64,000 bases of DNA, taken from assembly GCA_951406725.2 (NCBI GenBank), contig OX597827.1, positions 45,508,001-45,572,000 on the forward strand, given 5' to 3'. The notes under the pieces were generated by a model that saw only the letters and a program-made list of their open reading frames with translations, made no database searches and was not told the origin of the DNA. A program made the translations under genes and the position numbers. The stretch is from Octopus vulgaris (lineage: Eukaryota). Each line of letters starts with the position of its first letter. Position 1 is the first letter of the stretch. Shown here piece by piece: positions 1,380 to 59,911 of this stretch.

Positions 1380-2550
1380 AACCTTCACTACCACCACTAC
1401 CACCACTACCACCATCATCACCACCATCACCACCAGCAACAACGACAAGAACTGTAAAAACACTAAACCCGAACACTACCACTGCCACCACCAACACCAC
1501 TATCAGAAGCAATGACAACAACAGCAGCAGCAGCAGCAGCAGTCGTTCAAGTAGTTGCAACAGTTGCAACCTGAGGTAGTATATAACAATATATAATAAT
1601 ATATAATAATAGTATCGCGAAAAAAATGCATTCTAGCTACTGCGCTAACCAACAGGTTGGAAGTAACTGGTGTCGCTACGGTAGTGTACAGATATGCTAA
1701 TGCAGCAGCAACAGCGGTAGCAGCAGCAACCGTAGCAGAAGTGGTAGCAGCAGCAGCAGCAGCAGTAGCGGCAGCAACAGCATCGCTAGAGATCGGCGCC
1801 TTCCCCTAAACCCACCAAACAGCCCATCGCATACAATCGATAATGCTTCGTACGTACACTGATGGTGGTGGTGGCAATGGTAGTGGCGGTGGTGGTGATG
1901 GTGGCGGTGGTGGTGGTGGTGGCGGTGATGGTTGTGGTGGTGGCGGTGGTGGTGGTGAAGGAGGTATTGGTGGTGGTGGTGAAGGTGTGTTGGTGGTGGA
2001 GGTAGTGGAGGTGGTGGTGGAGGTGGTGATGGTGGTGGTGTTGGTGGTGGTAGTGGTAGTGATGGTGTTGATAGTGATGGTAAAGCGATGGTGGTGATAG
2101 TGTTGCCTGTGGTGGCGGTGGTGGTGATTATTGGTGCTGTTGGTAATGATGGTAGTAATAACAGTGCACATATTGTATTGGGGATGGTAGTGGTTGCGTT
2201 GGTATTGGTGGTGCCATTGTGTTGGTAGCGGTAGTTGCGGTAGCAGTAGTGGTGGTAGTGGATTTCATATTTCTATTGGTATTTGTGGAAATAGTGACTA
2301 CGTCAGTATTGGTAGTGGCAGTGTTGGTTGTAGTGGTGATCAGAGGTGGTGTTGGCAGTGGTTGTGTTAAGTTTGGTATTGTTGGTGGTGGTGGTGGCTG
2401 TGTTATTTGTGGCGTTTGTGATGTTGTCGTTGTTATTGCTGTCATTGACATGGATAATTAGTGGTGATACTAGTAGTGTTGTTGTAAGCGGTACCGGTTG
2501 TGGTATAGGTAGTGGTAAAGCTTATGTTGTTGTTGGGGGGTAGTTGTGTT
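1380..2550. repeat. trinucleotide low-complexity tracts (CAC/CAG, then GGT/GTT)
   Basis: direct inspection. Confidence 0.9.
1665..1677 (+). promoter_or_regulatory. 22-bp dispersed motif, copy 1 (partial: 13-bp right core only)
   Basis: AACTGGTGTCGCT is identical to the right 13 nt of copies 2 and 4; GGAATG is not in register. Confidence 0.55.
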
Positions 2551-2798
2551 GGTATTCCTGATATTGCCCACAACGGTCAGTTTTGTCGGTCATTCTCCCA
2601 TTTCATAATTAGCTTCGACAGACTCCAGCCACGTCCCTGCCGTGTTCTTGAGATATTTTTTTTGTTTCACCCGATGATAGTGTTTTTTTTTGTACTGAAG
2701 TAATGTTCTCATTCTTCTATCAAAAAATGCGTTAGAAACAGCTGTAATGAGCTGATAATTACCCATCGTCTGTTATTATTCATTTGATTATGTATATA

Positions 2799-3065
2799 TT
2801 GGGTTGTCCAGAAAATTCGAGCTGATTTATAGTAGCTTTCCTGTCAACTTATTTTAGAACATGGTTGAGTTCATAAAATAGGATTTGACTACACATCCAT
2901 TTAGAGCACAGTTTAAGCGATGTTTTCGTGGAAGAAGGTTTATGTTCCTATAACCTGTGTTAATTCTGTAACCCTTTAAAATGGAAGATAAGAAAGTTCA
3001 TTTTCGGCACTTGATGACCTTTTTCTTTCCTTTAAAAATCGACACGAACTTTCCGGACAACCCAA
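2799..3065 (+). mobile_element. internally deleted mariner element (MITE)
   Basis: TIRs TTGGGTTGTCCAGAAAATTCG / CGAACTTTCCGGACAACCCAA flanked by TA; retains a mariner-like N-terminus MEDKKVHFRHL at 2981. Confidence 0.85.
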
Positions 3066-3180
3066 TATATATATATATATATATATATATATATATATAT
3101 GTGTGTGTGTGTGTGTGTGTGTGTGTGTGTGTGTGTGTGAGTGTGTGTGTGCGCGTGTGTGTGTGTGTGTATGTAGCGAT

Positions 3181-3366
3181 GACAAAAGAATAAATGATTA
3201 TCGTATGAACTTCGTTAGCTTACAGCTGTTTCCTCAATAAAATGCAAAGGACTTATTGTTGAGTGCCTGGGCAACACCTTATAGCACTATGAGTCCACCG
3301 CATCTTAGGGCGGGAACAGCTGTGAGCTAATGCAGTTCATAAGACAATCGTTTATTCTTTGTTGTC
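3181..3366. repeat. imperfect fold-back (arms ~3181-3233 and 3313-3366) of a Penelope-like pLTR end
   Basis: arms are reverse complements; the same sequence follows the hammerhead motif at 38080-38130. Confidence 0.7.
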
Positions 3367-3685
3367 ACATTTTTTTCTTATTACCGTTCAGTACTCGACT
3401 AACGCTTCGTCCAGAAGCGTATGTATATTGAGTTTTACACCAGGTTATTGTATCGTAATGCCTAAGCCATGTGTATGTGTGTGTGTGTGTGTGTGTGTGT
3501 GTGTGTGTGTGTGTGTGTGTGCTTCCATGTGTGAGTGCCTGTGTATGTGTGTATTGATATATATTCTAGCTTTAAACACACCAGCATCGGTTGTCAAGCG
3601 AAGTTGGGGAGACAAACACAGACACACAAACGTATACACACACATACATATATATATATACATATACATGTATACGACGGGTTCA

Positions 3686-58219: not shown

Positions 58220-58470
58220 TGAAGGCTCATGGCTCGGCGGTTAGAGCGTCGGGCTCGCAGTAATGAGGTAGAAAGTTCGAATCCTGGACTGAGCAGTGTA
58301 TTTTTTTTTTTTGAGCAAGGCATTTATTTCATGTTGCTCTAGTTCACTCTGCTGTAGAAATGAGTTGTGACGTCACTGGTGCCAAGCAGTATCAACCTTT
58401 GCTTTTCCCTTGGATAACATCAATGGCATGGAGAGGGGAGGCTAATATGCATGGGCGACCGTTGCTCTTT
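58220..58470 (+). mobile_element. tRNA-derived SINE, family C type
   Basis: TGGCTCGGCGGTTAGAGC A box, GTTCGAATCC B box. Confidence 0.75.
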
Positions 58471-58524
58471 CTTATACATATAGATGCATGTTTATGTATG
58501 TGTGCGTGTATGTGTGTACATAAG

Positions 58525-59009
58525 GTGTTGTTATCTGTTTGATATGATATGAAAGGTTTAGTCCACTTTGAACTTTTAAACCCAAATTAAATGATAACAA
58601 AGGAGATCTACTGTAAGCAGCTTGAGTAGCTTAAGTCAACGCTAGAAGAAAAACGATCATCTTTGGTTTCAAGACCGGCCACATATAGCGAGGATGACAC
58701 TCCAAAGCTGGAGCAGTTTGAATGGGAAACGATATCCCACCCACCATATTCGCTGGACATTGCCCCAAAATCATTTGAACGGAAAAAATAAGAATTCTGT
58801 AGACGAGGTCAGAACAGCACTGGAGGAGTATTTTTCGTCACGGACAAGTGAATTTAGGAATAGGGGCCTTGCAGGTCTACCAGACAGATTGAAGGGCATT
58901 GTAGAAAATGAAAGAGAATATATTTTAGATTTAAAAAGAGCTTTGTTTATCCTAATTTTGGAAAATAAAAGAAGTATTAAAAAAACGCATTATTTATGGG
59001 ATGACCCTA
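58525..59009 (+). pseudogene. mariner transposase C-terminal fragment with right TIR
   Basis: DMKGLVHFELLNP..IYCKQL..PHIARMT..EWETISHPPYSLDIAP..FRNRGLAGLPDRLKGIVEN; ends TTATTTATGGGATGACCCTATA. Confidence 0.85.
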
Positions 59010-59889
59010 TATATTCATACGAAACAAAAGATGTAAAAAAAAAAGGAGACGAGGAAGAAGTAAAAGAGAAGAGGAGGAGGAGGAAGAAGTAGAGGAAGAG
59101 GAAGAAAAGATTGAAACCATTGAATTTACACTTTTTACTCTGTGCAAGGATACAAGTTCAAAGTAGGGAGAGATATTTTAAGAAGGGGAAGTGTTAGCTT
59201 TGATATTATGTCCCCTAAAGTGGTGTAGGGATTAGAAGAGAGAGTGAGAGAAATAGAAAGAGAGAGAAAGAAAGAAAGAGAGAGAGGCAATCAGGGGCAG
59301 ATAGATAGATAGATAGATAGATAGATAGATAGATAGATAGATAGATAGATAGATAGATAGATAAACAGAGACAGAGAGAAAGAGAGAATTTACTGGCGAA
59401 AGAGATCGTATGTGATGATGAGAGAGAGTTGGAGAGAGAGGGGCATAGAAAGAGATATTTTAAGAAAAATATATAGAGAAAGACTTCAAGCGAGAGGTAA
59501 TGAGGTAGAAAGATAGAGAGGAAGAAAGACAGTTAACGAAAATGAATAACCGAGATACAGGGAGACAAGAGATAATGAGAAAGAGAGAGAGGGAGAGTGT
59601 ATGAAAGAGAGGGTGAGAGGTAGGTCATGAGAGAAAGGGATTCAGTGAGAGAGAAGGAGAGCATGGAGAGAAACAGGGATGGGTGAGTGGGAAAGAAGAG
59701 CCTGGTGCACTCTACACATCAATGGCTAATCTCATGCTTTACTATGGTTGCAGCCGTGGAAAATGAAAACTTTTACAAAAATACTCATTTAATTCATTAA
59801 TCCCTGCGGATATAATAATAATAATAATAATAATAATAACCCCACTTCGCATCATCACTTCAACCACCTGAAATAATAATGGATACAAC

Positions 59890-59911
59890 AGCGACATCAG
59901 TTGGGCATTCC
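59890..59911 (-). promoter_or_regulatory. 22-bp dispersed motif, copy 11
   Basis: reverse complement GGAATGCCCAACTGATGTCGCT. Confidence 0.75.

What the first reader, a model, noticed from the sequence alone, without database searches (positions are those of the whole stretch)
1665..59911. Window-wide array of a 22-bp motif (GGAATGYNNAWCTGDTGTCGCT) with no TE context
Seen: ten full copies (8623+, 13273+, 18727-, 22418-, 30732+, 33147+, 39197+, 44529-, 52175-, 59890-) and one partial (1665+). All ten full copies have an invariant GGAATG and an invariant TGTCGCT exactly 9 bp apart, with variable positions in between and no indels. Flanks are mostly unrelated, and none lies in a SINE, LINE or DNA transposon. 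Each sits in a small complex island amid microsatellites. Thirteen invariant bases at fixed spacing recurring 10 times in 64 kb is far beyond chance. Inference: fixed ends with a free middle is the signature of a long sequence-specific protein site, such as a multi-zinc-finger factor, kept by selection in a gene-free interval. The right half (GRTGTCGCT) resembles the CGCT-ending CTCF core of vertebrate protocadherin promoter elements, but the left half is not canonical CTCF; GGAATG alone is a TEAD-type core. Candidates are an insulator/loop-anchor array, a locus-control array, site-specific recombination signals, or promoter elements of unannotated small RNAs.
Basis: partly seen in the sequence, partly recalled or inferred. 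Interest (0 to 1): 0.92.

Follow-up and report, generated by a model that had tools for sequence, protein, structure and literature searches.

The report
Fifty-site CTCF-TEAD array in octopus
About 50 copies of one 22-letter DNA signal, ten of them in this window, are packed into a 290-kb stretch without detectable genes in the middle of an octopus's protocadherin chromosome and are rare elsewhere in its genome; they are likely docking sites where the genome-folding protein CTCF and a partner, likely TEAD, would bind side by side to form an unusually large chromatin anchor.

Summary
Real, and larger than the window. All ten copies are exact (shuffle mean 0.03). In the 2.8-Gb genome, 41 of 77 exact matches lie in C14:45.50-45.78 Mb; with near-matches, 50 sites in 288 kb, 25 per strand, in 32 unrelated flank contexts. 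It grew by local duplication, is no dispersed transposon, and the motif outlasts its flanks. It lies between MGAT1 and a CCK-type receptor, 30-33 Mb from the protocadherin arrays of the same chromosome. The motif is composite: a TEAD-type site (17 of 23 contexts, null 26%) abutting a core that is enriched genome-wide alone (987 vs 100) and fits CTCF fingers 3-5 and 1, whose contact residues 3-5 are identical to human. It misses the CC and A read by fingers 6-7, so CTCF is likely, not shown. Best reading: a giant CTCF-plus-TEAD anchor array (0.5). snRNA promoters, miRNAs and protocadherin CSEs failed their tests. No earlier scan note and no paper found describes it.

The parts
1656..1677 (+). 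Partial copy: core intact (from 1665), upstream half degenerate and out of register
8623..8644 (+). Full composite site (TEAD-type half, CTCF-type core); unique flanks
13273..13294 (+). Full site, variant middle (TCG for CTG); unique flanks
18727..18748 (-). Full composite site; unique flanks
22418..22439 (-). Full composite site; unique flanks
30732..30753 (+). Full composite site; unique flanks
33147..33168 (+). Full site; local duplicate of the 39197 island; contigs of organisms D and E laid here show no change at the 13 invariant positions
39197..39218 (+). Full composite site; local duplicate of the 33147 island
44529..44550 (-). Full composite site with a second GGAATG 15 bp upstream; local duplicate of the 52175 island
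52175..52196 (-). Full composite site with a second GGAATG 15 bp upstream; local duplicate of the 44529 island
59890..59911 (-). Full composite site; unique flanks
1..64000 (.). The window is the left part (11 of 50 sites) of an array spanning G000:C14:45,493,964-45,781,552, in an interval with high CpG retention and no host exon found, between a CCK-type GPCR (first coding exon C14:45,416,506-45,416,832, minus strand) and the 3' end of MGAT1 (from about C14:45.83 Mb, minus strand)

Best explanation
The motif is a composite DNA element repeated about 50 times in one 288-kb interval by local duplication and conserved above its flanks; its 3' 15 bp are likely a weak, non-canonical CTCF site, its 5' 9 bp likely a TEAD (Scalloped) site, and the array would act as a giant two-way chromatin anchor or boundary. 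Proposed working (inferred): CTCF fingers 5-4-3 read GRT-GTC-GCT and finger 1 reads the GTR three bases further on; fingers 6-7 are poorly matched, so each site would be weak alone. The TEAD site occupies positions -8 to -1 of the CTCF core, the stretch where finger 8 crosses the minor groove without reading bases, so TEAD could sit beside CTCF and stabilise it (or compete with it), making the anchor conditional on cell type or Hippo signalling. The CTCF of this genome keeps the N-terminal YDF motif, recalled as the cohesin-binding motif, so 25 sites in each direction would stall loop extrusion from both sides. The nearest candidate target is the CCK-type receptor 77 kb away, shielded from the methylated MGAT1 domain. 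Shown: clustering, duplication, conservation above flanks, motif fit, presence of both proteins. Inferred: binding, cooperativity, any 3D role.
For: Clustering: 41 of 77 exact matches in 278 kb, control 17; GGAAT in register with a loose CTCF-type core 44 of 60 in the array, control 6; spacing fixed in 44 of 45 array matches but in only 4 of 28 matches outside. Selection: 32 unrelated flank contexts; information falls to background beyond about -7 and +33; in the 11-copy family identity is 0.96 in the TEAD half and 0.95 in the core against 0.67 in the middle and 0.50-0.63 in flanks, random 0.48. TEAD: HWGGAATGY (consensus from bioRxiv 2024.02.22.580842, passage) in 17 of 23 contexts with GGAATG against 26% of 306 other GGAATG, P 2e-6; W before GGAAT 29 of 29; TEA-domain gene present. 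CTCF: single 11-finger orthologue, contact residues of fingers 3-5 identical to human; no paralogue among 16 other best hits, 150 of 9565 candidates scored; T at core 11 costs human CTCF only 2-fold and core 9 takes G or T (PMC10484683, passages); unascertained positions fit: A3 28/32, Y5 32/32, G7 32/32, R8 31/32; GTR at 19-21 in 13/32 against 0/52 control TGTCGCT and in 9/56 independent genome-wide cores, P 4e-5. The core alone is enriched 987 vs 100, with mostly unrelated flanks for its AAC form; a CC-less sister core with G/T at position 9 follows tRNA genes in a C1 array, a setting known for CTCF in human (PMC5607496, passages).
Against: Two defining CTCF contacts fail: C at core 2 in 1 of 32 contexts and A at core 6 in 0 of 32 (T in 31), although the finger 7 Asp and finger 6 Gln are conserved; 0 of 56 genome-wide cores have CC. 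Genome-wide, T6 goes with T11 and A6 with G11: AACTGRTGTCGCT 266 vs 39 control, the A6-T11 form 120 vs 173, and among G11 forms 76 A6 to 24 T6 in the first 100 of 127 listed (my count); a plain CTCF continuum would not predict this, and the canonical motif exists separately (197 vs 16). No upstream motif at -9 to -18. Orientation is patchy (15 runs vs 26 expected, P 0.001), neither convergent nor divergent. The 32 contexts share ancestry, so the P values overstate independence. No binding, accessibility or contact data were seen. The cross-species check covers one island and close relatives only.
Confidence: 0.5

Rival explanations
1. The core, or the whole 22-35 bp, is read by another long C2H2 zinc-finger protein from the large cephalopod expansion, not by CTCF; the array is a landing pad (enhancer, silencer or tethering hub) for that factor.
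For: T6-T11 coupling distinct from the canonical A6-G11 class; no CC; rigid spacing of the two halves suits one protein; octopus has many C2H2 genes, also on the protocadherin chromosome (PMC9068888, passages).
Against: The triplets GRT-GTC-GCT match CTCF fingers 5-4-3 in order, plus the finger 1 register; none of 7 inspected near-paralogues has those contact residues; the core stands alone hundreds of times without GGAATG, which a single 22-bp reader would not predict.
Confidence: 0.25
2. The array is a local TEAD-driven super-enhancer or silencer of the neighbouring CCK-type neuropeptide receptor, with no architectural role beyond that gene.
For: It lies 77-365 kb upstream of the receptor's first coding exon with no other host exon between; islands carry extra motifs near the site: CAGGTG E-box 6/32 (background 2%) and GCAACA 9/32 (3%) within 60 bp upstream; the interval keeps its CpGs.
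Against: Fifty copies with one rigid spacing is far more than enhancer grammar usually needs (inference); the larger conserved half is the CTCF-type core; proximity alone is weak. This rival overlaps the best explanation in its binders and differs in function.
Confidence: 0.12
3. Each site is a SNAPc-type (PSE-like) promoter of an unannotated small RNA gene.
For: The PSE of this genome's U1, U2, U4 and U5 genes has ATCAGTG at about -58 and resembles the reverse complement of the core (10 of 13 letters against U4); U1 genes also form a mixed-orientation array.
Against: U1, U2, U4 and U5 carry AATTAA 32 nt upstream of the PSE core: found at 0 of 50 array sites and 0 of 56 genome-wide cores; the best full-motif score in the upstream 150 nt of 24 snRNA loci is below 0; no shared sequence or TATA-like element at the predicted start; no Rfam match in 150 kb of the array beyond the window.
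Confidence: 0.06
4. The copies are relics of a transposon or satellite, or signals for site-specific recombination or DNA elimination.
For: The youngest family shares a unit of up to 0.85 kb at 81-91% identity; some repeats elsewhere carry CTCF-like cores; mixed orientation shows frequent local inversion.
Against: A 601-bp unit matches at length only inside the array; outside matches are 52-116 bp and miss the motif; 28 of 50 sites share no flank with any other; no terminal repeats or paired signals seen; conservation is confined to about 40 bp.
Confidence: 0.04

Closest known systems
Igh 3'CBE super-anchor (10 CTCF sites in 12 kb; PMC11876664, passages)
   Same: Many CTCF-type sites clustered in gene-free DNA next to a housekeeping neighbourhood; there the cluster is a boundary whichever way it points.
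   Different: Here 50 sites over 288 kb (median spacing 5.2 kb), both orientations, non-canonical cores, a fixed TEAD-type partner site, and no adjacent gene cluster.
Vertebrate clustered-protocadherin CSE and tandem-CTCF super-enhancers (PMC7811963, PMC4978886, passages)
   Same: CGCT-ending CTCF-type core; tandem sites; same chromosome as a large protocadherin expansion.
   Different: CSEs sit about 200 bp upstream of each start codon; this array is 30-33 Mb from the scored protocadherins, whose upstream 9 kb lack the core (1 CTCF-like match in 20 regions).
Olfactory-receptor Greek Islands (63 enhancers with a Lhx2/Ebf composite motif; PMC8213717, passages)
   Same: Dozens of small intergenic islands sharing one two-factor composite motif.
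   Different: Greek Islands are spread among the receptor clusters on many chromosomes and use other factors; these islands are packed in one interval, and no target family is shown.
DXZ4-type CTCF macrosatellite hinges (recalled, no call)
   Same: A mid-chromosome cluster of CTCF sites that arose by local duplication.
   Different: DXZ4 is a homogeneous tandem repeat; here the flanks have decayed to random and only about 40 bp are kept.
CTCF-like motif at cephalopod TAD boundaries and loop anchors (PMC9023564, PMC13652810, passages)
   Same: CTCF and cohesin are present and CTCF-like motifs are enriched at boundaries in coleoids.
   Different: The passages seen report genome-wide enrichment only: no clustered array, no TEAD composite, no mention of this locus. 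Their motif figures and supplements were not seen.

Membership tests
CTCF binding site | An 11-finger CTCF with conserved base-contact residues is encoded | tested here: met
   C4:84.69 Mb, E 4e-118 to human CTCF; fingers 3-5 contacts identical, finger 7 Arg and Asp kept, finger 6 differs at three positions
CTCF binding site | Triplets for fingers 5-4-3 (core 7-15) | tested here: met
   G7 32/32 and R8 31/32 unascertained; TGTCGCT was the search seed; T11 tolerated at 2-fold cost
CTCF binding site | Triplets for fingers 7-6 (CCA, then A at core 6) | tested here: not met
   C2 1/32, A6 0/32; A3 28/32 and Y5 32/32 fit; CC 0/56 genome-wide
CTCF binding site | Optional 3' triplet for finger 1 at core 19-21 | tested here: met
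   G19 21/32, GTR 13/32 vs 0/52; 9/56 genome-wide; human finger 1 reads GAG, and the octopus middle contact differs
CTCF binding site | Optional 5' upstream motif at -9 to -18 | tested here: not met
   No C at -9 and -10; the conserved block lies at -1 to -8, the finger 8 spacer
CTCF binding site | Bound by CTCF and cohesin in vivo | not testable with these tools
   No ChIP, CUT&Tag or ATAC data reachable
TEAD/Scalloped (MCAT) site | Consensus RMATTCCWD | tested here: met
   17 of 23 contexts with GGAATG vs 26% null; 35 of all 50 sites; six sites have another base in place of the last G
TEAD/Scalloped (MCAT) site | TEA-domain factor encoded | tested here: met
   PF01285, two exons at C3:1.50-1.54 Mb
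TEAD/Scalloped (MCAT) site | Bound by TEAD in vivo | not testable with these tools
   No binding data
Protocadherin CSE | One copy about 200 bp upstream of each protocadherin start | tested here: not met
   No protocadherin in 864 kb around the array; all scored C14 hits at 0.6-15.1 and 79.0-82.9 Mb (150 of 224 and 150 of 219 candidates scored)
Protocadherin CSE | Matching sites at protocadherin promoters as loop partners | tested here: inconclusive
   6 TGTCGCY in 20 regions of 10 kb, 1 CTCF-like, none at a common distance; true starts may lie beyond 9 kb
CTCF super-anchor | Cluster of many sites in non-coding DNA | tested here: met
   50 sites in 288 kb
CTCF super-anchor | Boundary, stripe or loops in contact maps | not testable with these tools
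   No contact data reachable
snRNA-type promoter (PSE) | PSE core with AATTAA 32 nt upstream and a shared RNA about 52 nt downstream, as in this genome's U1, U2, U4, U5 | tested here: not met
   0 of 50; no shared downstream sequence
microRNA cluster (miR-1-like seed, recalled) | Motif on one arm of a stable hairpin | tested here: not met
   Best of 4 folds per site: z below -2.5 in 3 of 32, although 14 of 32 pair 16 or more motif bases; no Rfam match
Transposable element | Dispersed copies with shared body and termini | tested here: not met
   Unit confined to the array; 28 singleton contexts

The most novel reading that the evidence does not exclude
The array is a chromosome-scale control hub: about 50 TEAD-gated CTCF anchors, almost midway between the two protocadherin fields of the chromosome (30 and 33 Mb away), which loops to protocadherin genes and lets each neuron pick a subset, a convergent and much larger counterpart of the vertebrate protocadherin super-enhancer and of olfactory Greek Islands. 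It would also be a first case of CTCF binding switched by a fixed TEAD partner seated in the finger 8 gap.
Probability: 0.1. Interest if true: 0.95.

Novelty: new variant of a known kind. Interest (0 to 1): 0.75.

Why it matters
How CTCF works outside vertebrates and flies is open: for spiralians there is motif enrichment but no shown mechanism (PMC10658182, passages). A single interval with 50 natural variants of one composite site gives a ready test: which protein binds, whether an invertebrate uses CTCF super-anchors, and whether a signalling factor can gate CTCF through fixed spacing. It also defines a genome-wide 13-bp motif class (T6-T11) distinct from canonical CTCF whose reader is unknown. 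If the array contacts the protocadherin fields, it would address how cephalopods choose among some 150-290 protocadherins without the vertebrate promoter CTCF sites.

Tried and rejected
Coding exons or a host gene in the array: none among 66 long complex frames or 103 predicted exons apart from transposon remnants. Known RNAs: none but the worn U6 copy (150 of the 214 kb of array beyond the window's right end scanned). miRNA hairpins: rejected. PSE: rejected. CSE-type promoter element: rejected. CpG-island signal at the sites: none; CpG o/e 0.76-0.86 at all distances within the array. TATA enrichment: none clear (5 vs 3 of 32 at 30-80 nt). An AGCAACA...TGTCGCT inverted pair seen in some families is not general. 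Finding CTCF: family PF23611 and two recalled peptide patterns missed or buried it; a third found it. Expression: no RNA holder listed; one run guessed to be RNA left the site uncovered, which is no evidence either way. The unique 0.8 kb upstream of the 33147 island was not covered by two of the runs: no evidence. Literature: the exact core strings occur in 18 papers, the one opened by chance in primers; searches listed no paper on such an array or on a TEAD-CTCF fixed composite (listings only, except papers named as read). One structure paper on protocadherin CTCF sites was not held, so the vertebrate CSE sequences were not compared letter by letter. No complex prediction was run: the tool takes no DNA.
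Full report
1. Observation. The ten copies of GGAATG-N9-TGTCGCT are exact and at the stated places; shuffles give a mean of 0.03. The eleventh site has the core from 1665 and a degenerate, out-of-register upstream half. Nine of ten fit the title consensus. Two pairs are local duplicates. No site lies in a high-copy repeat by self-BLAST.

2. Setting. The window is G000:C14:45,508,001-45,572,000 of a 2.80-Gb genome. I take it for an octopus from its size, its repeats and a large protocadherin expansion (inference; earlier scan notes say the same). Of 77 exact matches genome-wide, 41 fall in C14:45,503,425-45,781,552 and 36 are scattered, against 17 for the reversed control. 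A weight matrix added 7 near-matches; with two sites of shorter spacing the array has 50 sites in 288 kb, 25 per strand, median spacing 5.2 kb. No matrix hit lies in the remaining 570 kb of the 864 kb fetched. To the right, a gene body with CpG o/e 0.32-0.48 spans 45.83-46.07 Mb and holds GNT-I (MGAT1) exons on the minus strand (3 of 11 candidates matched PF03071). To the left are two exons of a rhodopsin-type GPCR closest to human CCK receptors, also on the minus strand, so the array lies 77-365 kb upstream of its first coding exon found; a non-coding first exon further out is not excluded. C14 carries 80 of 83 protocadherin EC1 hits and all 150 of a protein search, at 0.6-15.1 and 79.0-82.9 Mb; about a third of the candidates were not scored in each search, so genes in between are not excluded. 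In O. bimaculoides the cluster is described as one 43-Mb block (PMC9068888, passages), so the split here may be a rearrangement or a scaffolding matter.

3. Origin and selection. With the motif masked, the islands fall into 32 unrelated groups (9, 9, 2, 2 and 28 singletons). Flank similarity falls with distance (Spearman -0.39; 0.68 under 10 kb, 0.48 beyond 120 kb, random 0.48) and orientation comes in patches (15 runs vs 26): growth by local duplication with inversion. The youngest unit, up to 0.85 kb, matches at length only inside the array, so this is no dispersed transposon. In the 11-copy family the two halves are 0.96 and 0.95 identical, the middle four bases 0.67 and the flanks 0.50-0.63; the halves were partly the search seed, but the decay of flanks to random around a kept motif needs selection. 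Contigs of two other labelled organisms (runs X8, X11) over one island show no change at the 13 invariant positions, and X11 differs only at two variable positions; a third (X7) stops just short of the motif. The flank letters resemble the 39197 duplicate, and the organisms are close (one contig 3 differences in 379), so this is weak support.

4. Anatomy. Over 32 contexts the consensus is W-GGAATG-Y-N-K-A-W-C-T-G-R-T-G-T-C-G-C-T, with weaker preferences from -7 to +33. The halves are separable. The core AWCTGRTGTCGCT occurs 987 times genome-wide against 100; by my count 60 of the first 100 listed are the ATC form, part of which is repeat-borne, while the AAC form (266 vs 39 with flanking letters fixed) sits mostly in unrelated flanks, sometimes in pairs 70-320 bp apart. 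I fetched 53 such loci, skipping one repeat family; only 1 of their 56 cores has GGAAT upstream. The pairing in register is array-specific: 44 of 60, and 44 of 45 array matches keep the exact spacing against 4 of 28 outside.

5. Who reads it. The 5' half fits TEAD: the reverse of RMATTCCWD (bioRxiv 2024.02.22.580842, passage) is met by 17 of 23 contexts with GGAATG against 26% of 306 other GGAATG, and W precedes GGAAT in 29 of 29; a TEA-domain gene exists. For the core I found the CTCF orthologue: eleven fingers, contact residues of fingers 3-5 identical to human, the YDF motif kept, finger 6 changed at three positions including Gly to Asn at the cross-strand position. In the register of PMC10484683 (passages and sections 12 and 16) motif positions 8-22 are core 1-15: GRT-GTC-GCT suits fingers 5-4-3, T11 costs 2-fold, positions 1 and 4 are not contacted, A3 and Y5 fit, and GTR falls on the finger 1 triplet in 13/32 array contexts and 9/56 independent cores. 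The TEAD half falls on -1 to -8, the finger 8 spacer. Against CTCF: C2 in 1/32, A6 in 0/32, no upstream motif, and a genome-wide coupling of T6 with T11 and of A6 with G11, while the canonical motif (pattern recalled) is separately enriched, 197 vs 16. The reversed control may be inflated by repeats, but the direct count still favours T6 over A6 when T11 is present. The Asn could favour T6 through a cross-strand contact (inference, untested). No CTCF paralogue appeared among 16 further hits, 7 of them inspected. I put CTCF as reader of the core at about 0.6.

6. Mechanism. Most likely each island is a weak CTCF site made strong, or switched, by TEAD seated beside it at fixed spacing, and 50 of them in both orientations stall cohesin from either side, giving a very strong boundary or contact hub between the MGAT1 domain and the regulatory desert of the CCK-type receptor (0.5). 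Shown: clustering, duplication, conservation, fit to two consensus sites, presence of both proteins. Inferred: all binding and all 3D function. Rivals: another zinc-finger reader (0.25), a purely local enhancer array (0.12; extra E-box and GCAACA motifs), small-RNA promoters (0.06), transposon or recombination signals (0.04).

7. Small-RNA rivals. U1, U2, U4 and U5 genes of this genome share ATCAGTG at about -58 and AATTAA 32 nt before it. The first resembles the reversed core (10 of 13 against U4), but the second is absent at 0 of 50 sites, and nothing is shared where an RNA would start. Hairpins are not above shuffles in 29 of 32 contexts.

8. Protocadherins. Twenty upstream regions of 9 kb hold 6 TGTCGCY, one CTCF-like, at no common distance. 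Two earlier scan notes (e1-9564061, e1-9530773; AI notes, partly tested) also report no CTCF element at octopus protocadherin promoters. The vertebrate model needs such partners (PMC7811963, PMC4978886, passages), so a protocadherin role rests only on the shared chromosome and the midway position: 0.1.

9. Known and new. Closest are the Igh 3'CBE super-anchor (10 sites in 12 kb; PMC11876664, passages), protocadherin tandem-CTCF enhancers and Greek Islands (PMC8213717, passages). It works like a clustered anchor but fails two defining CTCF contacts, so I do not file the sites as canonical CTCF sites. Searches listed no description of it; PMC13652810 has no mention of protocadherins in its main text. 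Motif figures and supplements of PMC9023564 and PMC13652810 were not seen and might hold the core motif. Also read in passages: PMC10658182, PMC6251859, PMC1500816, PMC5607496. Verdict: real, unusual, new variant of a known kind; interest 0.75.

Noticed in passing
window 10162-10267 (+): Worn U6 snRNA copy (76 bits) with many substitutions and without the upstream elements seen at the tandem U6 genes of C1; likely a pseudogene.
   Followed up: partly
G000:C1:195.196-195.270 Mb (L231-L237, L239): Array of 37 tRNA genes (35 His, 2 Gln); about 20 units carry a CC-less CTCF-like site (AACAG-R-K-GTCGCT type) some 75-80 bp past the tRNA, pointing back at it, with G/T variation at core 9.
   Followed up: partly
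U1 (L175-L186), U2 (L197-L204), U5 (L205-L212), U4 (L213-L218) upstream regions: Octopus Pol II snRNA promoter anatomy: ATCAGTG at about -58, AATTAA 32 nt upstream of it, and a TATA-like element near -30 in all four families.
   Followed up: partly
Genome-wide, e.g. C1:57.12 Mb and C1:39.996 Mb (L070): Repeats with 362-bp and about 550-bp spacing carry CCAGYAGGTGTCGCT or ATCTGATGTCGCT, and another family carries TCCCACTAGRTGGCACC: CTCF-like sites spread by repeats.
   Followed up: no
Genome-wide (L065-L081, L135-L174): A few hundred single or paired AACTGRTGTCGCT sites in unique DNA, with AACACCA or GACATCA enriched within 200 bp: a motif class distinct from canonical CTCF with an unknown reader.
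   Followed up: partly
G000:C18:50,982,174 (L082), C5:89,721,386 (L083), C21:5,112,093 (L240): Isolated full or near-full composite sites outside the array; the C18 one shares the upstream GCAACA and TGTA letters of array sites.
   Followed up: partly
G000:C14 0.6-15.1 Mb and 79.0-82.9 Mb: Protocadherins sit at both ends of the chromosome here, whereas one 43-Mb cluster is reported for O. bimaculoides: rearrangement or scaffolding difference.
   Followed up: no
L090:289-2919 (-), G000:C4:84.69 Mb: All 11 CTCF fingers and the N-terminus lie in one open frame of 876 codons, that is in one large exon.
   Followed up: no
window 3576-4127 (+), 47047-47808 (+), 58646-59092 (+): Transposon remnants: two transposase-like frames (family by recall) and a PIF1-helicase piece matching PF05970.
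   Followed up: no
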